A stretch of DNA of 62,849 nt, counting the filler. It is 13 parts of 13 records of this genome, joined end to end, with 100 filler letters (N's around TTAATTAATTAA, not from the genome) between each part and the next. Parts side by side here need not be neighbours in the genome. Positions count along the whole stretch, not along the records: positions 34,611 to 42,711 come from SRR7504441_12213; positions 42,812 to 46,481 come from SRR7504441_12214; 11 more parts are not named here. The stretch is one strand, 5' to 3'. Shown here piece after piece: positions 3,890-59,466 of this stretch. The translations under genes and the position numbers were made by a program. Each line of letters starts with the position of its first letter. Position 1 is the stretch's first letter. The notes beneath the pieces were generated by a model. The model ran no database searches. It saw only the letters and a program-made list of their open reading frames with translations, and had not been told where the DNA came from.

Positions 3890-3989
3890 NNNNNNNNNNN
3901 NNNNNNNNNNNNNNNNNNNNNNNNNNNNNNNNNTTAATTAATTAANNNNNNNNNNNNNNNNNNNNNNNNNNNNNNNNNNNNNNNNNNNN
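3890..3989. other. Artificial contig spacer (N44-TTAATTAATTAA-N44). Also at 8387-8486, 16701-16800, 20046-20145, 26498-26597, 29740-29839, 34511-34610, 42712-42811, 46482-46581, 51787-51886, 55689-55788 and 59577-59676
   Basis: Identical 100-nt layout 12 times; the core has stop codons in all six frames. Confidence 0.98.
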
Positions 3990-8227: not shown

Positions 8228-8486
8228 CGCCGACCTCCCCCCTACTAGACAGCACGTCCCATTACAACGCACGGCAGACTCACCGGCTCCGACACAAGGA
8301 TCTGTCCCAAGATAGTGGTGTATGCATAACCCCGTCAACCGGAGGGTAGGGGGGTAGTAGGGGGGTGTTGGGATTGAATTAAGAGGNNNNNNNNNNNNNN
8401 NNNNNNNNNNNNNNNNNNNNNNNNNNNNNNTTAATTAATTAANNNNNNNNNNNNNNNNNNNNNNNNNNNNNNNNNNNNNNNNNNNN

Positions 8487-11132: not shown

Positions 11133-14100
11133 ATGGCAGCCACAGGGAGCTGGCTGGCGGGTGCGGTGCTCCTGCACGCGGTGGCGTCGTGCTGGGCGGT
11201 CGAGCTGGCCGAGCTGGGGCCCGGCGACCCGATCCTGCTGCTCGACCTGCCGCCCGCCGTTCCAATCGTCCCCCCGGCGGCGCGCGCAAACCCCGGGCTG
11301 ACCGACCAGAGCTTTGAGCGCGAGGTGATCGGATCGGCCGAGCCGTGGCTGGTCATGTTCGGGGCCCCCTGGTGCGGGCACTGCAAGCGGCTGGCCCCGG
11401 CCTGGGCGCGGGCGGCGGAGGAGCTGGAGGGTGAGGTGCGGCTGGGCAAGATCGACGCCTCGACCCAGAAGAAAGTTGCCCGCCTGTACAAGGTCCAGGG
11501 CTTCCCGACCATCAAGTACTTTGGCCCGGGCAAGAAGCAAAGCCCGGAAGACTACACCGGTCCCCGGACCGCCGCCGACCTGGTGGCTTTCTGCCGGGGC
11601 AAACGTCCTAGCCCGGCTCATCGGCTCGAGGCGGCAAGGTTTGTAACGCCGTACGGAGTCGGGATGCGTCGCTACGTCGACCTCACCGGGATTGCCGGCC
11701 AGATCGATCGGCTGCAGATCTCGATCGACACATGGTCCGTTGGCCCGTGCGGCAGGCTGATCCGTGCGGCAGGGCGCCAGGCTCGCCTTCAGTCCAGCTG
11801 ATCTATCATGCCAACGAGAGCTGCGCGGTGGTATCCAAGTGCGACTCGGCCCAGACGCCGGCTGATCCTGGGGGCAGACCGGTTGGGGACGGCTGGCGGG
11901 TATCGGCGTCGCTGGTTCTGCGCGATGTGGAAGGGTGTGACGTGAACAGGCTAGTTTCCATCCCGTTGACTGACGGTATGGAGAATTTCCCAATCGGGGG
12001 GAGCGGTGCGGTGCCGGCCCGGCTGCGCGGCACTCGTCTGGAGCTGAAGCAGCCCGGTCAGTTTGACGATTACACAGCGTGCAATGGTACGGTTGTGCAG
12101 CTGCAGGAGAAAATGGGCTGGCAGCACGCGAGGGAGCGGCAGCAGGAGAAGCCGGAGCTCACTCCAGAGCAGCTGGCCGGCTCCGGGCAGTACGACCGGC
12201 TTGTCGGGCTGAGCCGAGTCAAAGTGCTTTCTGTGGACAGCAAGTCCTGGGAAGTTGAGCTGGGAGATCTGACTGCTCCGATTGAGCCTAGTTCAGTGTT
12301 GTTCATCCGACCTCTCACCAACCGGTCCGGGTTCAGCTGTGGCGAGCGGACATTCCCCGGCCCGATGCTCCAACGGCTCGGCAAGATCAAGAGCGTGACG
12401 ATGGCCGCAAACCAGTCTCAATGTTCCGCTCAGCTCGACGTGGATCCAGTCAATGCAACAATGCCTTGCGTGGCCGGGCATGGCTGGGCGGGGTATGTTG
12501 CTCGCTCCGAGGCCAAGCTGCGGCAGCTCGGGCAGTACTCGCCCCGCAACCCGACGTGCACAGAAGTCTCAGCCGCGCTGAACAGCTCCGCGCTCATTGT
12601 GAAGAGCGAGTCGCTGCCATCTGGGAACGTAACAGTGCTCGGGCGTAACCGCTCGGGCCTGGTTCTAGACCGACCGCTCGATCTGGCACTGGCGCTGGGA
12701 GAGAGTGCGGAGCTCGAGGTCACGATGACCGGCCATGGGCAGTTTGGAAAGCTGCAGTGTGCGGAATTCTGTGAAGTGAGACTCACTGTGCAGCTGGACG
12801 GCCGCGAGCTTGGCAAGGTGAAGATCCCGCCGCGCGACTGCGCCCAGAACCCCCTGAAGCACCAGCGCGGCTGCTGGGAAGGCCCGCGAGCGCAGTGGTG
12901 CCCTGGGAGCGTGGTGCTGCCGTCCGCTAAATTTGACATCAGCGCCGCGCTGCGTTATGGGAGGACAAATCACCGAGTCCGAGTACTGGCTGCAGTCCGG
13001 GAGATGGGCAGCGACCAGCCGTTCGAGCCGTACAGCGACACGAGCGGGTTCGTGTTCGGGTCCAACTCTGTGACTGGAGAGGCGGCCGCTGCTCACCTGA
13101 GGCTCTCGGTGGCAGTCCATGTATCGGCCCGAGCTACAACGCCTGGCAAATGTGACGCAAAAGACCGCTGGTCTCGGGTTCCGGACCTAGCGTTGGTCCG
13201 GTTTGTGGCGCCCGAGCTGCCTGGAATCCTGGAGCGGACCACTCCACTGCTCGAGCATCAGGCGCGGCGGCACCGGCATCTCGGGATGCAGCTACCTCTG
13301 ATCAGCAACGCGACTGCCAACAAGACCCAGCGCACGCTAGTCTCTCGCCGCCTGACCCGGGCGGAGCGCACGGCCATACAGAGCTGGCGGGCGCGAGGCA
13401 AACAAGTGGGGCTGCTACTGGAACTGGGTGCACCTGACGGAGGCGCCGCTGACAGCTGGGACCGGCTTGGGAGTGTTTCACTGGTCGAGCCCGCTTCGAC
13501 TCCAAGGCGGCTGCCTTCGGGGCCCGTGCTAGTTGGCTACGCCAATTGGGGCCAGTGCGATCACAAGATTCGGACCGCGGTCGAGCACGGGGTGAACGTG
13601 GTGGTCTGGTTTTCTATCAATCTATCAGTGAACACAACCACCGGTCGGCCTGGCATCTCCGGGCCCGCCTCGTCCGACACTTTCCTCAAATGCGTCGCCG
13701 AGCAGGCTGAGCGGATGCCAGGCGAGATAGTCCACTTGGTCTCAATCGGCGGCTGGAACTCGCCGCATCCGGACGTCAAATTTGGGGCACACGTCTGGTG
13801 GCAGACATGGAAGACGTGGAACCGGAGGGCTGTCACTGGCGGGTGGCGAGGATTCGATGGAGTTGACTGGGATGTTGAAGGCAACGACGACAAAGAGAGC
13901 GCGTTCAACCGATTCAGCACGGCCACTCTTGATCTGATGGGGCGGCTCTCGCAGCTTGCCAAGGCGGACGGCTATCTTGTGGCCATGGCCCCGGCCCAGT
14001 CTTACCTTGACCCGAGCACCAGCCAGTTCAGTAGGTCTGTGGCCAACCCTCCCAGGAGCCCGTGGCAGCACCAGTTCCGTCACGCTGGCCGGAACCTATA

Positions 14101-14929
14101 CGGCTACCTGCTGGCCAAGTTCGGGCTAGAATCGTTCGACCTGGTGATGGTGCAGCTGTACGAGGGATGGTCTGGGCTTAATTACAACATCTCGAAGACC
14201 AACCAATCAGCTGCGGACTATCTGGCTCGGTGGGCCGACCACATGTACGCCGGCTGGGAGGTGGACTTTGGCACTGACCCTGACTTGGACGTGGCTGCGC
14301 TGGGTAAGGTGCGGCTGGAGGTGCCGAGCAGCAAGCTGGTGGTTGGGCTCGCGAATGGGTGGGCTCGCCCTGCTGGGGACAAAGAGCACAAGTTTTTGAT
14401 GGTCTGGCCTGAGCAGCTGGCCAAGGCCTACTCTGAGCTGGCCAAGGCTAGGAAGCAAATGCGCGGCTTCATGTTCTGGAACATTGGTGATGAAGGCCTT
14501 GCGGTGATGAAAGATGGCAATCGAACCGAGGTTTGGATGGCCAAAGGGCTGAACGCAATTCTGTCGAGGGATCCGGTCCGGGCCAAGAGGGAGTCGAGGC
14601 TTGTAGGGGCGCCCGGTGAGGTGGCTCTGAATGACAAGGGGATGCTGGCGGCCTTGGACGCGGGGATGGCACTGCTGAATGCTCGGAGCGATTCGCTGCT
14701 CCAACGGGGGAGCCCCACCAAGGCGACGAGACAGGTGGTGGCCGGACTCAAGTATACAATCAGCGTGCCGGTGGGGCCCTCGAGCTGTGACAAGGCAACG
14801 GCTAGCGAGAATGGACTCGATGAGTGCAGCTTGTTGGCCGGAAAGGCCCAGGAGCGCGAGCTGGTGGTGTTAGACCAAGCCTGGATGAAGCCTCGTTACA
14901 CAATATTAGAGCAAGCAACACAATATTAG
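11133..14929 (+). CDS. Secreted multidomain protein: PDI-type thioredoxin + unknown region + GH18 chitinase-like domain + cystatin-like domain; one intron at 11735-11772
   Basis: Signal peptide; FGAPWCGHCK; SIGGWN...FDGVDWDVEG (DxxDxDxE); QVVAG...AW at the C-terminus. A 38-nt GT-AG intron joins the two ORFs in frame. Confidence 0.75.
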
Positions 14930-16700: not shown

Positions 16701-16819
16701 NNNNNNNNNNNNNNNNNNNNNNNNNNNNNNNNNNNNNNNNNNNNTTAATTAATTAANNNNNNNNNNNNNNNNNNNNNNNNNNNNNNNNNNNNNNNNNNNN
16801 TAGAGCTCTATAATGTCTG

Positions 16820-18820: not shown

Positions 18821-19978
18821 TTATGCCATCCAAGATGGGGTCACAACAGCAACCGAAACATAGCGATACTCCTCGAGCGACGAGTTGGACCGCTCGAACA
18901 CGACTGCGATCTTACCATCAGGCAGCTCGACAAGGTCACTATACGCTGCGCGGTCCTTGTATATAAGCCCCCACGGCTCGATCACCCAACTTGCGCCTCC
19001 ATCAGATGAGCTGGCGACAGTCATGTTTCGCCGGTACGCACAAGAGCCCTGCGTGTGCGGGCCACACTGAGGCCGCTGGCCGGAGGAGTCGCCGTGGAGG
19101 GTTGCGGTTGGCTTTGAGAGTAGCAGCTTGCTCTTGTTGTGCGCTGAGGTCAGCCCGTGCTCCACATTGTAGCCGGGACCAAAGTTTACATCAAACGGCT
19201 GGTCAGCAGGGAATGACCACGATTTAGCCCAGCTTCGGCCACCATCGTGCGAGATGGAGAAGCCGCGCTGGATGGGCAGCCAGTGCCAGCCGGGCTGCCG
19301 GAGCGCTGAGAGCCGGCTGGTCAGCACCACTGAGCCATTGGAGAGCTCTGCAACCATGCTTTCACCCCAGCCCTGCTTGCTGGGCAGTGCCGGGGTGAAA
19401 TTTCCCGGGCGCCAGGAGCCTCCGCCGTCGTGCGAGATGATCACGTAGCTGCCCACTCCGTGTCCAAACGGCGAGATCAGCGCCCCCGAGGACAGAGCGA
19501 TCCCGCCGCAGCCTTCTCCGGAGCCTCCGCCTGTGTGGTTCTGGTGGCAGCCCGCTGGCTCGGAGGGCGACCAGCTGCCACCCTCGTCTGTAGACTTGCT
19601 CATGCAGCTATACGGGAGCGGGCAGCTCGCCGAAGCGGTGCAGCTACCCCCATACGCGGGGGGCGGGCTCAGACTGATAATCGCGTTGCCCGCTGGATCG
19701 TAGATGAACTGGGCCAGGTCCCCGGCCCCGAGGTGCGGCTGCCGCACGGCCGGCTCCCACGAGACTCCCCAGTCGGCGCTTCTCCGGAGCCAGATAGACC
19801 GGTTGAGAACACCAGCGCCGCCGCCGCAGATCCCCCAGACCAGCAGCGAGCGGTCGGTCCGGACCAGCTGGGCGCCGCTGCACTTTTGGGCGTCGCCGCC
19901 CGGCTGCCCGAACAGGTCTATATACGGCGCGTAGGCCGCGCTGGACGCAACCAGCAGTAGATCTAGGGCGATCCGCAT
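18821..19978 (-). CDS. Secreted BNR/Asp-box beta-propeller (GH33 sialidase-like); intronless
   Basis: Five SxDxGxSW Asp-boxes, WGE, AAYSDL, signal peptide. Confidence 0.8.
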   Translation of the reverse strand: MRIALDLLLVASSAAYAPYIDLFGQPGGDAQKCSGAQLVRTDRSLLVWGICGGGAGVLNRSIWLRRSADWGVSWEPAVRQPHLGAGDLAQFIYDPAGNAIISLSPPPAYGGSCTASASCPLPYSCMSKSTDEGGSWSPSEPAGCHQNHTGGGSGEGCGGIALSSGALISPFGHGVGSYVIISHDGGGSWRPGNFTPALPSKQGWGESMVAELSNGSVVLTSRLSALRQPGWHWLPIQRGFSISHDGGRSWAKSWSFPADQPFDVNFGPGYNVEHGLTSAHNKSKLLLSKPTATLHGDSSGQRPQCGPHTQGSCAYRRNMTVASSSDGGASWVIEPWGLIYKDRAAYSDLVELPDGKIAVVFERSNSSLEEYRYVSVAVVTPSWMA

Positions 19979-20145
19979 GCTGCAGGCACTTTTGCCGTTA
20001 TTGTGCTTTCCAGCGAAGCTGTCGCGCTCTGTTTTTCCAGCCGGGNNNNNNNNNNNNNNNNNNNNNNNNNNNNNNNNNNNNNNNNNNNNTTAATTAATTA
20101 ANNNNNNNNNNNNNNNNNNNNNNNNNNNNNNNNNNNNNNNNNNNN

Positions 20146-42504: not shown

Positions 42505-42853
42505 TTGAGCTCAAAGGAGACATTACTTAGGCCAGCAGTAGGCTGCCTAAGGAGGGACGTCATGAGTTCACAAATGCCTGTTGTGGTTACGTACGGCTGG
42601 TGTGTCGTAATTATTTTCATCGGCGGTGTACGTGCACATTTTAGAATACAATATTTGATCAATATTTAATCGCTCCACTCCAACATGTATTAACATAGAC
42701 TAATAATTTGCNNNNNNNNNNNNNNNNNNNNNNNNNNNNNNNNNNNNNNNNNNNNTTAATTAATTAANNNNNNNNNNNNNNNNNNNNNNNNNNNNNNNNN
42801 NNNNNNNNNNNGCACGGGCTTCATCGTCGGTGCCATCGGTGCCGGGATCCGAA

Positions 42854-43564
42854 ATGCAGCTCAGCGACAACCCGAATTGGTACTATCTGCTGCGCGAAAT
42901 GTACGAGCTGTATCGGAAGATCCCGGCCGGCGGTAGCCTCCCTATCCGCGAGCACCAGCGTGCGGTGCGGGAGGCCGTAGAAGCGGTGCTTCAGGAGAAT
43001 CCGCCGCTCCGGCTGGGCTTAGCCAAAGACAAGCCGGTGACGGCGCACATGCAAAGAGCGCTGGACGAGGGGCGGCTCGAGCGCGGCAAGCTGGCGGCGA
43101 TAGTGCGGTCTATCGATGCGATCAAATCCGACTTAGTCTGGCGGTGGGGATACGACCACGGGACAATGCCCGAGCGCCTACGGGCTTCGTACGCGTTTGC
43201 GGAGATGATTGGGCCGTCTGGACCGGTTGTCACAGATAAGGTGACGCTTGGTTTGGTACTTTTTGAAGGGGGCTGCTCATATCCGTCGCACGCGCACGAC
43301 GGGATCACCGAGTCATACGTGTGTCTATCCGGCTCGGTAAGCGAGAACAACCACGGGGTGTACACCCCTGGATCGATGATCTTCAACGAGCCCGGGTACG
43401 ACCACCAGATCACCGTGAGCGACCTGGAACCTGCGCTGCTCGCGTACGCGTGGATGGGTTCGCCAGATGGGCTAAAGCATTTCAAGATGGAATTCAACGA
43501 CATAAAGGCGCAGCCGCAGAGTGACCCACCCTGGCGTCCCGACATATGGCGCCCTTCGCAATAA
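42854..43564 (+). CDS. dddL: DddL-like cupin dimethylsulfoniopropionate (DMSP) lyase; intronless, frame open upstream to the contig edge (42812)
   Basis: LSDNPNWYYLLRE...AGGS.PIR.H, KPVTAH..RALD.G, W.WGY, YA.AE.IGP.GPV, LGLVLF, YPSHAHDGITESY, SEN..GVY.PGS.I.N.PG..H.IT..DLEPALLAYAW. Collinear, from memory, with alphaproteobacterial DddL over the full length. Confidence 0.85.
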   Translation: MQLSDNPNWYYLLREMYELYRKIPAGGSLPIREHQRAVREAVEAVLQENPPLRLGLAKDKPVTAHMQRALDEGRLERGKLAAIVRSIDAIKSDLVWRWGYDHGTMPERLRASYAFAEMIGPSGPVVTDKVTLGLVLFEGGCSYPSHAHDGITESYVCLSGSVSENNHGVYTPGSMIFNEPGYDHQITVSDLEPALLAYAWMGSPDGLKHFKMEFNDIKAQPQSDPPWRPDIWRPSQ

Positions 43565-43769
43565 ATCAGGCGTGGTGGGATGATACAAATACCACCACAC
43601 TGGTCGTCTACTATTACATGTACATAATCCGGCTTATCGCATGATTCTGGCCGTGATGCTTGAAATCGAGTACGTCAAGTACGTCGCGTATGATGTCTAT
43701 CATGGTCCAGAGTTATAATGATGAAGTTTCCACCTCTCATCTAATTCTTGCTGAAGTACGTGTGTCTAT

Positions 43770-46478
43770 CTACTTGTAATAATCTATCATCTGTTTGTAG
43801 TATTGATCAAGTCCGTACGGCTTCTCCCACTGGGTCTCCTTGGTCCGCATGTTGGAGTAATAGAATTTCCTTGACTGATCCATGAATGTACCCCAAATGC
43901 ATTTCCCGTCGTAGGGCGCTGGAGGTTCGACCCTGCCCACTGCTCTCAGCAGCCGGCCAACAGCGCGCATTAGTTGGCATGTACGCACCCACACTCACAG
44001 CACGTCTCCCAATATCGCCCGCGCAGGTAGTCCTGATGTGCTTCGGCCATGGGGCTAGATGGTCCAGACTTGAGCACCCTTGCGTGCACTCCATCGACGG
44101 GGCACTTACCGCAGTAGGCCAAGAATTCGCCGTGGGCACACACCACTCGCCCGTCCGGTTTACCTTTGACCTTCTTGACACCAAACTGAGCCCCGACGCA
44201 CTTGCAAGCATAGCCGTCGGCATTGCCATCTGCTAAAACTGACGCACTTTTGCAGCAAAGCGACTCGTACTCATTGTGCCAGCAGACCACCTCTTCGTCG
44301 TCTTCGAGCCTGCCCCACAGTCAGCCCACATGTGATTGCATGGGTGCTACATCACACAGTACTGCCCGTCCTGATGGCATTTGCCGCAATATCCTCCGTA
44401 CCGCTCGTGATGGCACACCAGCCTCACCATCTTCATGTCCGGCTCGCCCAGAAGCCGGTGAGACTCTTTGAATTCGAACGGCTCGTCTGCGCTGAGCAGC
44501 TGATCCGATGAGATCGACCCGCACCAGAACTTCTCAATGTGCATCGCCACCAGGTGCGTGCCTTGTGTATGCTTAACGAACGGGGGCGATTCCGGGTCAT
44601 AGAGCGTATCGGTCAAGTCTCTCAGCAGGACTGGCTCATTCCCGTGGATCACCTGGCCTGCTCCGTCAGACAAACAGCCAGGTGCGGAGCGCCACCATCT
44701 GTCTCACACCAAACCCAGCCCCGAGCAATGAATAGTTGGCGTGCACTCCGCACATGATGACGTGCTTGCGGTTTTCTTTCTTGAGCAGGTCGAGAGCCTG
44801 GAACTTTTCGCAGAGTTGGTCACCAATCTCAAATAGGTCGTATCGCCACTTTGTATTGCACCGTTTGAGATCCTTTCGGCACTTGCCTTGCTCGGCTGGA
44901 CAGGAGCACCCAGTGTGCGCTTGCGCTTCCCAGCCCTCATCGCCAATGTCAGATATCGGCAAACAAGGCTCCTGCCTCGCGTGGATACCCTCAGACTTGC
45001 CTCTGGTGCACCAATCTTCTGGTATATTTTGAGAGCCCACCTGGCCCAAGTCGTGCCCCGAGGCGGCCAGCGTGCACCGTGGCTGTGACGGCCTGCGAAA
45101 CGCGGTGCTGGTTCCCGAGGGTGCCAAGGAACGCCTTGAGATCGACAGTTTGCTGTCGGCGCATTGACGGAGGCATCGCACTATTCGCGTGGATGATCTG
45201 GACGCCCTGCGAACGGAGCGAAGAAGCCACGTCCTTGATCCGGGCCTCCATCTCGTCTATCCGGCCAGTGGCCCCCTTGCACCAGTGCTTTTGCCACATG
45301 TCGCATATCACCAAAGCAGTCTCCTCCGGCGCCCAGCTGAGCTCCTGGTCGGGCTGGCCGGTCCGCCGGGCCGTCAGCTTGATCGGGCGGCTTCCCGTGG
45401 GCGGCCAGCGGGCGTTGATCTCGGGGTTTGTGAGCTGATAGTCCTGGATTAGGCGCGCGCATTGCTCCTCGGCCCATTGGTCGTCGGCCGCCTCACCGCC
45501 CGTGATGTCTCTGTGCACTCGACTCACCTGAACCATTACTCGTGAGCCCATTCCAGCTCAGCCAGGCACCTTGTACTCAGACTGGTCACTGCTCGAGTCC
45601 ACAGAACACACCAGCACCATGTCTGAAAGCAGCATCAGCGCCAGCTCCTGAAACTTGGTGTCCTCCGTATGCAGCTTACCGAACCCTGTCACAGAACGGA
45701 CCAACCGACGGGTCATGTCTGCGTGCAGGTTGCAGTTGAGCCCGGTCACGCCGGCCTCGGCCTTGAGCAACATCTGGTACTCCTTGTACACCCGATCCAC
45801 CTTCTGTTCGGCCTCAATAAACTCGCCCAGCACAGCAGTCAGCTCATTGTGATCCGCCGCCTCGGGGCCACTCTCCTTGATCAACTCCATCAGGCTCGCG
45901 CGATAATTGATAAACCCCTGCATCGGCGCCATGCACATGCTGGACAGCGTCGGGCCTTTAAACCCTGCCTTTTGGTCCTGGACCGCCTTCAAGGCGTTGA
46001 GACAGGTTTTGACGCTGCGATTCTTCAGCGCCTTCATGATCGGCGCATGAAAGCAGGTCATGCAGAGAAACTCGACCACCTGGTCGTGCTGGGCGCCGCG
46101 CCGGTAGACCGGGGCGAGCGGCCGGCCGTCCGCCAGCGCGGCCTCTGCCTCGCTGGCCCGATCGGTGCGGTCCACCAGCATAGTCTGGCAGCAGGCCACC
46201 AGCCTGCCTATATCGTCCAGCAGCACCTCGTGCGGGACATCCAAGCTGGTCGGCCACTCGAAGGTCTCGCCGCGCTGGCCATCCAGCTGCAGGTCGAGCT
46301 TGCCTTGGCGCATCATTGTCTCCAGCGGGAGCAGGTAGCTCTCGAGCATCTGAGAGGCCGTGTCCCTCAGCTTGGCCGCCACCTCGACCAGCTCCTTCTT
46401 GACTGAATGGATCATCCGCTCCTGCTTTGTGCCCGCCACCCGGTCCAAGTCCGCCGCCAGCGCTTGCTCACCCGCCAT
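43770..46478 (-). CDS. Fusion: DH (RhoGEF-like)/PH + isochorismatase-like hydrolase + Cys/His repeats + WW; multi-exon
   Basis: LSSMCMAPMQGFINY..L.EL (DH-like); TALVICDMW..HWC, GVHAN, LRDLTD..Y.P (isochorismatase-like); W...FYYSN...TQWEKP (WW). In-frame intron at 45528-45569. Confidence 0.65.
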
Positions 46479-46581
46479 CTCNNNNNNNNNNNNNNNNNNN
46501 NNNNNNNNNNNNNNNNNNNNNNNNNTTAATTAATTAANNNNNNNNNNNNNNNNNNNNNNNNNNNNNNNNNNNNNNNNNNNN

Positions 46582-52147: not shown

Positions 52148-54159
52148 ATGAACCCGAACGCCCTGCCGGCACTTCAGGGAGCGTGTCTGGGCACTGCCGC
52201 GGCAAGCCCTCACACCGTCTGCGGCACTAGCCAGCCACACGTATCTGCCGCGACTCGCACCGGGCCCCCCACCACGCTGCAACTGATGGCTTGGCTGCTG
52301 TTGCTCCGGAGCCGAGTGCCGGCCGAGCTGCATCAGCCCTTCGACGACTGGTGCGCCCGGCAGCTGCCCGCGAGCCGCGGCTGGAGCCCCGACCGGTCCG
52401 AGCACCTGGTCTGGCTCCGATGCGACCAGCCTGATCTCGACAGCTCGGCTGCCCGGCTCCAGACCCGCTGGGCTGACCAGGTGCGCACCACCCGCGAGCT
52501 GTATCAGGTGGCCGCGCCGGATCCCAGCCCGCCCGAGGCCGCGGTGGTGGGCCTTGCAGCGGACGCGGCGGCAGTGAGGCCTGAGGGCGAGGAGCCCGCA
52601 GCGAGGCCTGAGGCCGAGAAGGGAGCAGTGGAGCCGGTGGCGCCTGTGGTCAAGCGGCCCGGGGCTGTGCGGGTGTGCACGGCCGACGCCAGCCACGGGA
52701 TAGACGTGCTACGACTGGTGATCAAAGAGAGCTGCTGGCTCCGGCAGGTCAAGGCCCGCAGTAAGGCCGACCTCCATTGGTTTGCCACCAGTAGCGGCGA
52801 TGGGTTCTTGGACCGTTGCGCTGGGCTGAAGCCAGGCCAGTGGATGAACAAGCTAATGGGGGCGCACGAGGGCTGTAAGAAGGCCGTGCTCAGCCGGGCG
52901 TTTGGCCGGTTCTCGCTGTATCGGAAATTTGGGTTCCTGCCAACTTCGTGGATCCTTCCGCAGCAGACAGAAGCGTGTGCAGCTAGCATGCAGAAGGCTG
53001 GCAAGGGATCCCATTGGATATGTAAGCCCACTGGTGGCTCACAGGGCAAAGGAATCTTTCTCGTCTCGAACTGGCAAGATCTGGCCAACAAGCTGGTACG
53101 GGCGGGGCTGGCGGTTGCGGATTGGATGGGCAGTTTTCTCACGGGATAGACAAGAGCAAGTCCCTGCTCGTCCAGAGGTACATCTGCAGCCCGATGCTAC
53201 TCCAAGGCCACAAATTCGATCTCCGGTGTCCATTCGCGTGTGCTCTCTCACGGTTGGGCAGGCTATATGTGCTTCTTGTTCAACCGGAAGGCGGAGAGTA
53301 TCAGTTGTACTTGTGCCCTGAGGGCCTGGTAAGGGTGTGCACTGAGCCTTACAATCGGCCTACCGTAAAGAACTTGCACAAGCTAATGGGGCATTTGACC
53401 AACTCTTCTCTCAATGCCCAGTCTGATAAGTATGTTGCTGCCGGCTCCGCCAATGATGCAGAGTCTGGCTCCAAGCGCACCATGAGTGCAGTGATGGCCC
53501 AATTGGCCCAAGTCGGACTCGACACTGGCCAGCTCTGGGCGGCCCTGGGCCAGCTGTGTGCAGAGTCCGTGTGGGTGATGCTCCCCGGGCTCAACGCCGC
53601 CCGGGCCCGGACACAGGCTGCGAGTGGCGGGCTAGCTGGCGGAGCCTTTCAGGTTTTGGGCGTGGATGTGCTGCTCGGAGAAGACGCTCGGCCACACCTG
53701 ATGGAGGTCAATGCCAACCCAAGCATAGCGCTGTATCACACGAGCAGCCCAGACGAACCGGTGAACCCAGTCGATATGGCTGTCAAGCGAGCAGTAGTGG
53801 CCGGGGCGCTTGCGGTGGTTCTAGGTCACAGCCATCCGGACTGTCCTGTGTACGAGCCACTGGATATGCCGGAATGCGACACCGTTTGGCACCGCATGGC
53901 GCAGGCATATAGTCAGGCAGTTGGAGGCGCGCACGAGTTGACAGGGAACAGCTTTCGCCGGCTGCTGCACGAGAGTGGAGTTGCCCCACCGCTGATAGCC
54001 GACGAGGTGTTCCGGCAGATGCGGCACCAAATGAATGAGCAATACAAAGGGATCGGTCTTGAGGCGTTCTTCGATATGGTAAAAGAGATAGCATGCAAGC
54101 GCCACAGGGATTCTGACGAGCTCGAGGCCCTGCAACTCATATGCGAGTCGTTTGAATGA
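52148..54159 (+). CDS. Tubulin-tyrosine-ligase-like polyglutamylase (TTLL family); at least 2 introns
   Basis: WICKPTGGSQGKGIFL, VQRYI..P.L...KFDLR, HLTN.SLN, LGVDVLL, MEVNANPS. Confidence 0.92.
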
Positions 54160-54243: not shown

Positions 54244-55518
54244 TCACGCTTGACGTTCACCGAGGAGTGCCCATTTCAACTCGTAGCCTACACACACAAT
54301 CCCCCGCGCTATGTACCCAAGAGCGTTCATCCTAGGCTGATCGTCCGTGTACCCAGAGATCTTAGAGTCGCCGGAGCTTGCGCTACCACACGTAGAACCC
54401 GCAAGACATTGTCCACTCCTCGGACAATTTTCCGTCCCGAGAAGCACGGGATATCTCGCCGGGTCATCACCGATGTGGCGCCCCGGACCATCGGGATTCA
54501 GCCACGTCGTCTTTAAAACCCCGAGACAATCGACTAAATCAGAACGGTCAAACCTCCTTTTGAGTGCCTGTCGCTGATAGAGTGTGTCGTCCGTCGCGAG
54601 GCGAAGCACATATGATGCACGCGGAGCCCGAGGAGGATCCTCTTGGTGCGGCGGTGGGAGGCTCCGATGGGCGATCTCAAACGAAAAGAGGAGGACATCC
54701 CCTCGCGCTGGGCAAACAATCTCCGTGGCTCGACTGCCTTTGCCACCGGTACTCGTTGCTGCTCCCGTCGTCGTCTCCGTCGACCAGAGACCCAATCGAC
54801 GCAGGGTTGGCTCCAGATTAGACGTCGTGTACATTGCCTGGCGCAACCTCTCCTCCAAATGAGGCGGGACCCGGTCCTGCGGAAGAAACTCGGTGCATCC
54901 GTACCCTTCCGCCATGTTTACCAGCGGCACAAACAATGTCATAACCGAGCTCGGTGGCCACAGCCGGAAGTTGCCATCAATGTGGAATCGCCGGAACCCG
55001 CGTTGGGGTTCTTTGATGTGCTGCCTGTTGAGGAGCAAAGCATCGTACACGTAGCGGAGGCGGGTCGCATTTGACAGCACCGCCCGGCCGATCTGGACCA
55101 ATGCCGACCCACGCAGCAAGGCCGAGGCGAGCTCTGGGTCATGGATCGCTGTCCCATGAAAGAATGGGTTGCTCTGGGGCCGACGGCGCCTGTTCACCTG
55201 TGCCAGCGTGCCCTCCCGAAAGGCATCGAGCGCAGCGATTGCCGGTCGGGGCAGGATCTTCTTGAGGTGCACGAACCCCCGCCGCTGATACTGCGCCACT
55301 TCCTCCGGCGACACTGGCCTCAGCAGCGTGGGCCCGGCCGCTCTGGCACTGGAGAGCACCGACTGGCGGTGCTCAGGCTGCATGCCGACCCACACCCCGT
55401 TGAAAGCGAGCCGGAAGATCGGGGCCATGAGCTCTCCAGGCGAGACCGAAGTGAGCCAGGCCAGGACTGCCGCAATGAGCAGGCCACATGCTGAGGCACA
55501 CCGAAGAGCTGCGCACAT
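54244..55518 (-). CDS. PhyH-family 2OG-Fe(II) dioxygenase with N-terminal anchor
   Basis: YQRRGFVHLKKIL, FHID (HxD), GDVLLF...AHRS, R.SY..R. Confidence 0.8.
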   Translation of the reverse strand: MCAALRCASACGLLIAAVLAWLTSVSPGELMAPIFRLAFNGVWVGMQPEHRQSVLSSARAAGPTLLRPVSPEEVAQYQRRGFVHLKKILPRPAIAALDAFREGTLAQVNRRRRPQSNPFFHGTAIHDPELASALLRGSALVQIGRAVLSNATRLRYVYDALLLNRQHIKEPQRGFRRFHIDGNFRLWPPSSVMTLFVPLVNMAEGYGCTEFLPQDRVPPHLEERLRQAMYTTSNLEPTLRRLGLWSTETTTGAATSTGGKGSRATEIVCPARGDVLLFSFEIAHRSLPPPHQEDPPRAPRASYVLRLATDDTLYQRQALKRRFDRSDLVDCLGVLKTTWLNPDGPGRHIGDDPARYPVLLGTENCPRSGQCLAGSTCGSASSGDSKISGYTDDQPRMNALGYIARGIVCVGYELKWALLGERQA

Positions 55519-56235
55519 CACCGTCTACTGCCCGCGCATCTCAGAAGAAATCAATCCTATTCAAGTACTATAATATTAATAGTACGGGCGAGACCGCGAG
55601 AGTCCGTGCGAGGTGTCCCCAACTGTCCACTTGTCGGTTGGGTCTGGAGGAGACGCGCTGGGGGAGACATTGGCGTCCTGGCGGTGGCNNNNNNNNNNNN
55701 NNNNNNNNNNNNNNNNNNNNNNNNNNNNNNNNTTAATTAATTAANNNNNNNNNNNNNNNNNNNNNNNNNNNNNNNNNNNNNNNNNNNNTTAGAATGAGTC
55801 GGTAGAGTGATTTCCGTTATTTGAATTAATTAGTTAACTCGCTGCCTTCTGTTGTGTAGGTCATCCCTTTGCTGAGTCGCTAGCTCCCTCTCCGCCTCCG
55901 CCCTATCCCTATGGACTATGGTCTGAGTCTGGGAGGATTCAGCCCCTCGAGCCAGCAGTGTGTTATAAATATCCTGAACGAGCTCTAGTTGAACTGCGTT
56001 CTTCTCCGCCTCCTTTGTCATGTGCTTTAGACTTTTCAAGTGCGTACTAGATTTATCTATACGTCAGTCCTTAACTATTGGTAGATAGATAGACGTTTCT
56101 AGTACTGGATCTGTCTGAATATATACCCTAATCGTTGGCTCAATATGCTCAGCACTAGGTATTCTTTTTGCACTATGCATTGGCAACAATGCTTGTCGTC
56201 ATTGACCAGGTGCAATTATTCGATAATGGGTGGAT

Positions 56236-59466
<3,231 letters not shown>

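What the first reader, a model, noticed from the sequence alone, without database searches (positions are those of the whole stretch)
42812..43564. Bacterial-type DddL DMSP lyase embedded in a eukaryotic contig
Seen: an intronless 236-aa ORF with intact cupin metal ligands (YPSHAH...E, distal H) and DddL-like N-terminal motifs (LSDNPNWYYLLRE, AGGS, KPVTAH). An AT-rich spacer and a convergent gene with spliceosomal micro-introns follow on the same contig. Known: DddL is a cupin DMSP lyase characterised in Rhodobacteraceae, whereas the characterised eukaryotic DMSP lyases are the Alma family (algae) and DddP (some fungi). Inference: a protist acquired DddL horizontally and may cleave DMSP to DMS + acrylate, an unrecognised eukaryotic route in the marine sulfur cycle. 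The frame is open to the contig edge, so a targeting peptide or fused domain may be missing.
Basis: partly seen in the sequence, partly recalled or inferred. Interest (0 to 1): 0.9.

Follow-up and report, generated by a model that had tools for sequence, protein, structure and literature searches.

The report
Bacterial-type DMSP lyase in a protist
An intact gene for DddL, a bacterial enzyme that splits the marine sulfur compound DMSP into the climate-active gas DMS, sits next to a spliced eukaryotic gene on a short contig of an unidentified marine protist, which suggests microbial eukaryotes have a DMS-producing route not yet reported.

Summary
Window 42854-43564 (+) is an intronless 236-aa ORF. 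It matches Pfam PF16867 (DMSP_lyase) at 113.5 bits against a cut-off of 27, and it aligns end to end with alphaproteobacterial DddL at 54-62% identity. Cupin motif 1 and all metal and catalytic residues are intact. Nothing closer than 62% was found in 5.8 billion proteins or in 185,579 prokaryotic species genomes.

The window is 13 short contigs joined by spacers, and this contig is only 3,670 bp. Its remainder carries a convergent gene with a WW domain. One 41-nt GT..AG intron of that gene is spliced out in a poly(A) metatranscriptome contig.

Three things favour residence in the eukaryote. The ORF's codon usage falls on the host side, above all 80 bacterial dddL genes. Its 3' flank is AT-rich like host gene ends. 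A DNA contig from another sample carries the ORF end into the spacer.

Still open: read-level continuity across 43682-43774, expression, the 5' end, host identity and enzyme activity.

A second, phylogenetically separate clade of longer, mRNA-like DddL relatives also turned up.

Verdict: probable horizontal transfer into a protist (about 0.65), and unreported in the literature I searched.

The parts
42812..42853 (+). 42 nt upstream of the first ATG, in frame and without a stop. It is either 5' leader or a short N-terminal extension. The contig begins here.
   Evidence: Translation. No AG dinucleotide in these 42 nt. The first 30 nt (42812-42841) are shared exactly with an 81-nt DNA contig of run X1 that then diverges (record 1). 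They are unique within the window. The tip of the contig is therefore unsure.
42854..43564 (+). Intronless DddL-type cupin DMSP lyase ORF, 236 aa plus a TAA stop.
   Evidence: PF16867 at 113.5 bits. 54-62% identity to alphaproteobacterial DddL. 58 of 62 columns invariant in 18 bacterial DddLs are kept.
43271..43333 (+). Cupin motif 1, G-X5-H-X-H-X4-E-X6-G (residues 154-174 of P0001), with Tyr157, His160, His162, Glu167 and Tyr169.
   Evidence: Regex match. The motif definition and the roles of the equivalent DddQ residues come from passages of PMC4437653 and PMC5395565.
43370..43417 (+). Cupin motif 2 region (residues 187-202). His198 is kept, and the motif's conserved Pro is replaced by Glu193.
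   Evidence: strict motif 2 is not matched. Four of the five bacterial DddLs checked read G-X5-P-X-G-X2-H-X3-V.
43490..43561 (+). Lineage-specific C-terminal tail (about residues 227-250), mostly unaligned to the bacterial DddLs compared.
   Evidence: Alignment A1. A synonymous population variant lies at 43531 (CCC to CCA, Pro) in run X1.
43565..43769 (.). 205-nt AT-rich spacer between the two convergent stop codons. Presumed to hold the 3' UTRs of both genes.
   Evidence: GC 0.434. No bacterial-type terminator here and no Rfam match. X1 DNA contig record 2 runs from 43489 to 43681 with a 4-nt deletion at 43621.
43770..46481 (-). Convergent multi-exon eukaryotic gene, cut by the contig end. 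Pieces: RhoGEF-like (weak), isochorismatase-like (weak), a Cys-rich segment, and a C-terminal WW domain.
   Evidence: Pfam on the pieces. A path with five short GT..AG introns gives one open frame of 843 aa. Only one of those introns is verified, and the middle of the model is doubtful. RNA contigs at 99-100% identity lie on it in runs X2 and X4.
44310..44350 (-). 41-nt spliceosomal intron (GT..AG), removed in poly(A) RNA.
   Evidence: table 5 and record 8 (run X2). Recovered independently by the path search. Caveat: the shorter side of the joint is only 22 letters.
43773..43944 (-). Last exon, carrying the WW domain.
   Evidence: PF00397 at 28.5 bits against a cut-off of 26.9. X1 DNA contig record 3 covers 43775-44027.

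Best explanation
This is a dddL gene of alphaproteobacterial origin that was transferred horizontally into the nuclear genome of an unidentified marine protist. It has since diverged there, with a long branch, host-like codon usage and a new C-terminal tail, while keeping its catalytic machinery.

Inferred mechanism, from the family: a mononuclear metal ion is held by His160, His162, Glu167 and His198 in a C-terminal cupin barrel. A conserved tyrosine (Tyr169 or Tyr157) acts in beta-elimination. DMSP is split into DMS plus acrylate, and probably DMSOP into DMSO plus acrylate.

Shown here: family membership, intact motif 1 and ligands, absence of any close bacterial counterpart, physical linkage in this assembly to a spliced eukaryotic gene, and host-like composition.

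Inferred: nuclear residence, expression, cytosolic location and activity.
For: Family:
- PF16867 at E 1e-32.
- 577 homologues at E <= 0.001 among 2,991 candidates. The best 120 are 54-62% identical, and many are named DddL or DMSP lyase family from Roseibium, Roseobacter, Paracoccaceae and others.
- 59% identity over 216 aa to a Roseibium (Labrenzia) aggregatum protein. An L. aggregata dddL mutant loses about 97% of its DMSOP lyase activity (PMC10686828, passages).

Phylogeny:
- It lies inside the canonical clade: 35 rows with SH-aLRT 97 in the quick tree of 99 rows, and 42 rows with 82/81 in the careful tree of 55 rows.
- Its end branch is 1.37 against a median of 0.28.

Constraint:
- 58 of 62 invariant and 35 of 45 near-invariant bacterial columns are kept, and motif 1 is exact.
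- There is no stop or frameshift.
- The one variant seen inside the ORF is synonymous.

Not a known bacterium:
- 367 relatives were found in 185,579 species genomes, the best at 61% by tblastn.

Eukaryotic neighbour:
- A WW domain and an RNA-confirmed 41-nt GT..AG intron.
- The other 12 contigs carry eukaryotic genes, for example alanyl-tRNA synthetase in exons whose best named matches are eukaryotes at about 40%.

Composition:
- The codon log-likelihood ratio (host against bacterial dddL) is +0.079 per codon for this ORF.
- 16 of 16 host exons score +0.039 to +0.206, and 4 of 4 same-contig exons score +0.033 to +0.242.
- Bacterial dddL genes have a median of -0.171 and a maximum of +0.053, with 2 of 80 above 0.

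3' flank:
- The next 120 nt are 46% GC, lower than 78 of 80 bacterial dddL flanks (median 60%).
- 8 of 11 host ORF ends have flanks of 35-45% GC.

Independent sample:
- X1 DNA contigs at about 98-99% identity cover the ORF end plus spacer (43489-43681) and the WW exon (43775-44027), at similar depth (3 and 3.9).
Against: - The contig is 3.7 kb and belongs to a fragmented, metagenome-like assembly.
- No independent record spans 43682-43774, so the join between the DddL half and the eukaryotic half rests on this assembly alone.
- The gene has no intron, and its 5' region is missing.
- The GC drop after the stop (0.09) is within the bacterial range, whose maximum is 0.12.
- The codon score sits at the low end of the host range. 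The pooled bacterial codon table mixes many genomes.
- Four columns invariant in bacteria are changed (Y112W, A152E, P153G, R230D). So are the motif-2 Pro (P193E) and R199Q. Activity or substrate could therefore differ.
- The trees contain no labelled DddQ, DddW or DddK sequences. The outgroups are unnamed PF16867 representatives.
Confidence: 0.65

Rival explanations
1. Assembly chimera or contaminant. The DddL ORF, with some of the spacer, belongs to an unsequenced alphaproteobacterium and was joined to a protist fragment during metagenomic assembly.
For: - The contig is short and the assembly is fragmented.
- The ORF is intronless.
- No independent record crosses 43682-43774.
- An X1 contig shares only the first 30 nt of the contig and then diverges, which shows branching in the assembly graph at the tip.
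- The phylogenetic position is inside bacterial DddL.
Against: - The codon score is above all 80 bacterial dddL genes and within the host range.
- The flank after the stop is AT-rich like host gene ends. An independent sample carries the ORF continuously into that flank for 117 nt.
- There is no terminator-like site in the spacer.
- Nothing above 62% identity exists in 5.8 billion proteins or in 185,579 species genomes.
- The terminal branch is about five times the median.
- A chimeric join needs a shared repeat. The only repeat near the junction is a 14-nt pair whose two copies are both retained, which is not the footprint of a graph collapse.
Confidence: 0.18
2. A genuine protist gene, but no longer a DMSP lyase. 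Either it is a cupin enzyme with a shifted substrate (for example a preference for DMSOP or another sulfonium or zwitterion), or it is a decaying, unexpressed relic.
For: - The branch is long.
- Substitutions occur at 4 of 62 invariant and 10 of 45 near-invariant positions, including the motif-2 proline.
- There is a new C-terminal tail.
- Cupin lyases differ in their DMSP versus DMSOP preference (PMC10686828, passages).
Against: - All metal ligands and both tyrosines are kept, and motif 1 is exact.
- The frame is intact over 236 codons.
- 94% of invariant columns are retained, which is not what neutral decay at this divergence would leave.
Confidence: 0.12

Closest known systems
Bacterial DddL (cupin DMSP lyase; ratified in Sulfitobacter sp. 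EE-36, Rhodobacter sphaeroides 2.4.1 and Labrenzia/Roseibium aggregata)
   Same: - Same Pfam family.
- Collinear over about 215 residues, including the DddL-specific N-terminal half.
- 54-62% identity.
- Identical cupin motif 1 and His/Glu/Tyr set.
- Similar length (236 aa against about 216-235 aa).
   Different: - Sits beside a spliced eukaryotic gene.
- Host-like codon usage.
- Two 2-residue insertions and a C-terminal tail of about 15-20 aa.
- Substitutions at Y112W, A152E, P153G, P193E, R199Q and R230D.
- A much longer branch.
Other cupin DMSP lyases (DddQ, DddW, DddK, DddY, DddU)
   Same: A cupin barrel with a 3-His-1-Glu type metal site and catalytic tyrosines. Same reaction (DMSP to DMS plus acrylate).
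   Different: Only distant sequence similarity. Solved DddQ chains match at E 1e-4 to 0.1 with the single protein, and at 8e-8 to 1e-4 with a DddL profile. No DddL structure was found in the PDB copy by sequence.
DddP in ascomycete fungi (the known case of a bacterial-type Ddd lyase in eukaryotes)
   Same: A bacterial-type DMSP lyase present in a eukaryote. It sets a precedent for transfer (PMC4437653, passage).
   Different: A different fold (M24 metallopeptidase), a different host group (terrestrial and plant-associated fungi) and a different gene family.
Alma1 family (algal DMSP lyase)
   Same: Same overall reaction, in marine eukaryotes.
   Different: Asp/Glu/hydantoin racemase superfamily and unrelated in sequence (PMC10349084, passage). 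No such domain is present here. A 2026 review calls Alma1 the only known DMSP lyase in algae (PMC13360808, passage).
Unnamed longer DddL-like proteins P0129, P0130, P0133 and P0147
   Same: PF16867 at 96-119 bits and the same catalytic motif. They also look eukaryotic.
   Different: - Only 37-40% identical to the window's protein.
- 272-485 aa long, with N-terminal extensions.
- A separate clade next to a Thalassobaculum-type DddL.
- A single clade with the window's protein is rejected (AU p 0.005).

Membership tests
DddL / Pfam PF16867 DMSP_lyase | Scores above the family's curated threshold | tested here: met
   113.5 bits against a gathering score of 27, covering profile positions 2-161 of 162.
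DddL / Pfam PF16867 DMSP_lyase | Groups with named or ratified DddL rather than with other cupin lyases | tested here: met
   It lies within the canonical alphaproteobacterial DddL group (SH-aLRT 97; 82/81). It is 59% identical to a Roseibium aggregatum DddL-family protein. DddQ structures match only at E 1e-4 or worse. Caveat: no labelled DddQ, DddW or DddK rows were in the trees.
DddL / Pfam PF16867 DMSP_lyase | Cupin motif 1 G-X5-H-X-H-X3,4-E-X6-G with the two conserved tyrosines | tested here: met
   The match is at residues 154-174 and includes Tyr157 and Tyr169. The motif comes from passages of PMC4437653 and PMC5395565.
DddL / Pfam PF16867 DMSP_lyase | Cupin motif 2 G-X5-P-X-G-X2-H-X3-N | tested here: inconclusive
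   His198 is kept, but the Pro is Glu193. The final N is V in four of the five bacterial DddLs checked, so the strict motif fails for them as well.
DddL / Pfam PF16867 DMSP_lyase | DddL-specific N-terminal half collinear with the cupin domain | tested here: met
   The alignment runs from residue 14-16 to 229 with two 2-residue gaps.
DddL / Pfam PF16867 DMSP_lyase | DMSP-dependent DMS production; metal dependence | not testable with these tools
   Needs expression and a gas-chromatography assay.
Resident eukaryotic nuclear gene (horizontally acquired) | Physical linkage to a spliced eukaryotic gene, confirmed independently of the assembly | tested here: inconclusive
   The two are linked in the window's contig. 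Independent X1 contigs cover 43489-43681 and 43775-44027, but none covers 43682-43774.
Resident eukaryotic nuclear gene (horizontally acquired) | Composition ameliorated towards the host | tested here: met
   The codon LLR is +0.079, above 80 of 80 bacterial dddL genes and within the range of 16 host exons. The 3' flank is 46% GC.
Resident eukaryotic nuclear gene (horizontally acquired) | Polyadenylated transcript | not tested
   Only two RNA runs could be laid (the cap is one call), and these are assembled contigs. See Tried and rejected.
Alma family (algal DMSP lyase) | Asp/Glu/hydantoin racemase superfamily domain | tested here: not met
   Pfam reports only DMSP_lyase and cupin families.

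The most novel reading that the evidence does not exclude
Cupin DddL-type lyases have entered marine eukaryotes at least twice.

One entry is the recent, intronless, alphaproteobacterium-like copy in this window.

The other is an older clade (P0129, P0130, P0133, P0147). These are known only from short, mRNA-like contigs with GC-rich coding regions and an AT-rich 3' tail. They carry N-terminal extensions that look like targeting sequences.

If both are real and active, protists have a DMS-producing route besides Alma. Environmental dddL reads that surveys now count as bacterial would then be partly eukaryotic.
Probability: 0.35. Interest if true: 0.8.

Novelty: new member of a known kind. Interest (0 to 1): 0.66.

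Why it matters
[quoted passage not shown] Budgets split it between bacterial Ddd enzymes and algal Alma enzymes. Two 2026 papers still describe Ddd lyases as bacterial and fungal and Alma as the algal family (passages).

My four literature searches found no report of DddL in a eukaryote. They were DddL with eukaryot and horizontal gene transfer; DddL with MMETSP; DddL with dinoflagellate and homolog; and 'DddL-like'.

A DddL in a protist would add a third case of a DMSP-cycle gene shared between bacteria and eukaryotes, after fungal DddP and algal DSYB. It would also mean some environmental dddL counts are misassigned. It gives a directly testable candidate: 236 aa, no introns, easy to express.

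The enzyme itself is an ordinary family member. The novelty lies in the host and in the transfer.

Tried and rejected
- Expression. None of the contigs of the two RNA runs laid (X2 poly(A), X4 oligo-dT) lies on 42812-43770. They lie only on the neighbour. These are assembled contigs of runs holding 6-9% of the sampled words, so the lack of cover says nothing.
- Close relatives in JGI metagenome contigs. A scan with the protein found 37 pattern matches, and none was a relative. So there was no 5' extension and no second linked copy.
- Own genome. None is held.
- Host taxonomy. I ran the alanyl-tRNA synthetase exon in 'longer' mode by mistake, which excludes normal-length enzymes. The top named hits are only 39-41% identical (Symbiodiniaceae entries), and insects, fungi and green algae follow at 34-38%. 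The host stays unresolved.
- Gene model. A fewest-introns path that allowed introns up to 400 nt skipped obvious coding sequence, so I discarded it. The short-intron model is verified at only one of its five introns.
- A word-index search with P0129 returned only 3 proteins, none with an organism name. The eukaryotic origin of that clade therefore rests on the look of contig L081 alone.
- Bacterial signals on the contig. There are 4 terminator-like sites against 2.0 expected, none of them in the spacer. There is 1 promoter-like site against 1.6 expected. Rfam gave 0 matches.
- A 14-nt exact direct repeat lies at 43316-43329 and 43757-43770. I considered it as a chimera footprint and set it aside, because both copies and the 441 nt between their starts are present.
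- Supplementary files of PMC10686828, which list the DddL proteins assayed, were not seen.

Full report
**What is there**

The 62,849-base window is not one contig. It consists of 13 pieces of 3.1-8.2 kb joined by N44-TTAATTAATTAA-N44 spacers. The finding lies on the piece 42812-46481, which is 3,670 bp.

The frame 42812-43564 (+) is open.

The protein matches Pfam PF16867 (DMSP_lyase) at E 1e-32 and 113.5 bits against a cut-off of 27, over nearly the whole profile. NCBIfam gave only weak ChrR-cupin hits.

**Relatives**

Among 5.8 billion clustered proteins, 577 matched at E <= 0.001 out of 2,991 candidates. The best 120 are all 54-62% identical and 216-259 aa long. Where they carry a name, they are DddL or DMSP-lyase-family proteins of Alphaproteobacteria such as Roseibium/Labrenzia, Roseobacter, Roseinatronobacter, Paracoccaceae and Devosiaceae.

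A full HMMER scan of 1.84 billion representatives found 530 hits at E <= 0.001, 112 at E <= 1e-10 and 17 at E <= 1e-30. None is a long fused form.

A scan of one genome for each of 185,579 prokaryotic species found 367 relatives, the best at 61% by tblastn. So there is no near-identical bacterial source.

No DddL structure is in the PDB copy by sequence. DddQ is the nearest solved relative, at E 1e-4 with the single protein and 8e-8 with a DddL profile.

**Is it still an enzyme?**

I aligned it with 18 bacterial DddLs. The window's protein keeps 58 of the 62 columns that are invariant in those 18, and 35 of 45 near-invariant ones.

Cupin motif 1 (G-X5-H-X-H-X4-E-X6-G) is exact and contains both tyrosines. 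The papers describe these residues as conserved in cupin DMSP lyases and as catalytically important in DddQ (passages of PMC4437653, and PMC5395565).

In motif 2 the histidine is kept, but the conserved proline is a glutamate. Other lineage-specific changes are Y112W, A152E, P153G, R199Q, R230D, two 2-residue insertions and a new C-terminal tail.

The one population variant seen inside the ORF in another sample is synonymous.

The gene looks constrained and probably active, though a shift in rate or substrate cannot be excluded. Cupin lyases differ in their preference between DMSP and DMSOP (PMC10686828, passages).

**Phylogeny**

The first tree was a quick IQ-TREE run of 99 rows. These were the window's protein, 33 of the 120 close hits (the 14 named ones plus every sixth), one Thalassobaculum protein, and the 64 representatives of 190 aa or more; shorter representatives were left out. 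The window's protein falls inside the canonical DddL clade of 35 rows (SH-aLRT 97).

The second tree was a careful run of 55 rows. These were the window's protein from Met15, every second one of the 80 named loci, and 14 representatives. The protein sits in an unresolved polytomy at the base of the canonical group (42 rows, 82/81). Its end branch is 1.37 against a median of 0.28.

The donor family cannot be named. The nearest rows by path length are Paracoccaceae and Stappiaceae.

**The neighbour and the host**

A 205-nt spacer at 43.4% GC follows the TAA stop. After it comes a convergent gene on the minus strand.

Its pieces give a WW domain above threshold, plus weak RhoGEF and isochorismatase signals.

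A contig from a poly(A) metatranscriptome (run X2) joins 44308 to 44350 and skips 41 nt. On the minus strand these 41 nt begin with GT and end with AG. The shorter side of that joint is only 22 letters, and I had set likeness to 85, so the tool's own caution applies. However, the record has 2 mismatches in 143 nt and none in the 22. In addition, a path search that knew nothing of the RNA recovered exactly this intron as one of five short GT..AG introns (25-44 nt) that make one open frame.

RNA contigs at 100% identity from two poly(A)/oligo-dT studies also lie on the upstream exon.

The other contigs carry plainly eukaryotic genes. Their alanyl-tRNA synthetase exon matches eukaryotes at about 40%, with Symbiodiniaceae entries among the top named hits. 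That search was run in the wrong length mode, so the host remains unplaced.

**Resident gene or chimera?**

Four lines of evidence favour residence.

1. Codon usage. The per-codon log-likelihood ratio between a table from 16 host exons and a table from 80 bacterial dddL genes is +0.079 for the ORF. Host exons scored +0.039 to +0.206 in leave-one-out (16 of 16 positive). Same-contig exons scored +0.033 to +0.242 (4 of 4 positive). Bacterial genes scored -0.327 to +0.053 (2 of 80 positive).

2. The 3' flank. The 120 nt after the stop are 46% GC. Among 11 host ORF ends on other contigs, 8 have flanks of 35-45% GC, 2 are GC-rich (probably exon ends rather than gene ends) and 1 runs off its contig. 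Bacterial dddL flanks have a median of 60%, and 2 of 80 are at or below 45%. The drop of 0.09 is nevertheless within the bacterial maximum of 0.12, so this line is only moderate.

3. An independent sample. In run X1, a DNA contig at about 98% identity runs from 43489 to 43681, from inside the ORF through the stop and 117 nt into the spacer. It differs by four substitutions and a 4-nt deletion. Another X1 contig covers the WW exon (43775-44027) at similar depth.

4. Absence of bacterial features. There is no terminator-like site in the spacer and no Rfam hit.

Against residence:
- Nothing independent spans 43682-43774.
- The contig is short.
- The gene is intronless.
- An 81-nt X1 contig shares only the first 30 nt of the contig and then diverges. 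This stretch is unique in the window, and the divergence is unexplained.

My estimate is about 0.65 for a resident and probably active gene, 0.18 for a chimera or contaminant, and 0.12 for a resident gene with altered or lost function.

**A second lead**

Four more distant relatives are longer than bacterial DddLs: P0129, P0130, P0133 and P0147. They are 37-40% identical to the window's protein and score 96-119 bits on PF16867. They come only from short contigs.

The one contig I could fetch (L081, 1,899 nt) holds a single ORF that extends to 485 aa from an upstream ATG. The protein has an Arg/Ser/Ala-rich start and an acidic run. The contig has a 240-nt leader, a 63% GC coding region and a 37% GC 3' tail.

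This clade is well supported (98/81) and sits beside a Thalassobaculum-type DddL. Forcing it into one clade with the window's protein is rejected (AU p = 0.005). I had named the group by length before the first tree, but I ran the test after seeing the trees.

**Comparison with what is known, and novelty**

The protein is a member of the DddL family by every sequence test I could run. Activity and metal binding are untested.

What is new is the setting. The papers I read in passages describe Ddd lyases as bacterial, with DddP also in fungi, and Alma as the algal lyase. Four full-text searches found no report of a eukaryotic DddL. One of these, 'DddL-like', returned no papers at all.

I rate it a new member of a known kind in an unexpected host. 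Interest is 0.66. It would rise if linkage and activity are confirmed, or if the second clade proves eukaryotic.

Noticed in passing
L081:241-1698 (contig of P0129); also P0130, P0133, P0147: A separate, well-supported clade of longer DddL-like proteins (PF16867 at 96-119 bits), known only from short contigs. L081 looks like a eukaryotic mRNA: a single 485-aa ORF with a basic N-terminal extension and an acidic run, and a 37% GC 3' tail. A single clade with the window's protein is rejected (AU p 0.005).
   Followed up: partly
window 42812-42841: The first 30 nt of the contig are shared exactly with an 81-nt DNA contig of run X1. That contig then diverges and also extends beyond the contig start. 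The stretch is unique in the window. Possibly a graph branch or a repeat elsewhere in the genome. Unexplained.
   Followed up: partly
window 43316-43329 and 43757-43770: An exact 14-nt direct repeat. One copy lies inside the DddL catalytic-motif codons, and the other abuts the neighbour's stop codon. By my own arithmetic, about 0.03 such pairs are expected by chance in 3.7 kb. Probably chance, and not the footprint of a collapsed join.
   Followed up: partly
window 1-62849: The window is 13 contigs of 3.1-8.2 kb (54-67% GC) joined by artificial N44-TTAATTAATTAA-N44 spacers. Features must not be read across 3890-3989, 8387-8486, 16701-16800, and so on.
   Followed up: yes
window 53026-54159 (+) and 54244-55524 (-): Two long ORFs converge with only 84 nt between their stops. 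By eye, one resembles tubulin-tyrosine-ligase and the other phytanoyl-CoA-dioxygenase; these labels were not tested. The spacer is AT-rich. This is the same compact convergent layout as DddL and its neighbour.
   Followed up: no
window 56236-58350 and 58712-59419 (-): Alanyl-tRNA synthetase split into at least two exons. The best named matches are only 39-41% identical (Symbiodiniaceae entries), so the host is a eukaryote far from any named genome in that search.
   Followed up: partly
window 11612-14929 (+) and 18821-20089 (-): Very long single-exon ORFs (1,105 aa and about 407 aa) that by eye resemble secreted glycoside-hydrolase-like and BNR/sialidase-like proteins. These could be further bacterial-type acquisitions. 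Not tested.
   Followed up: no
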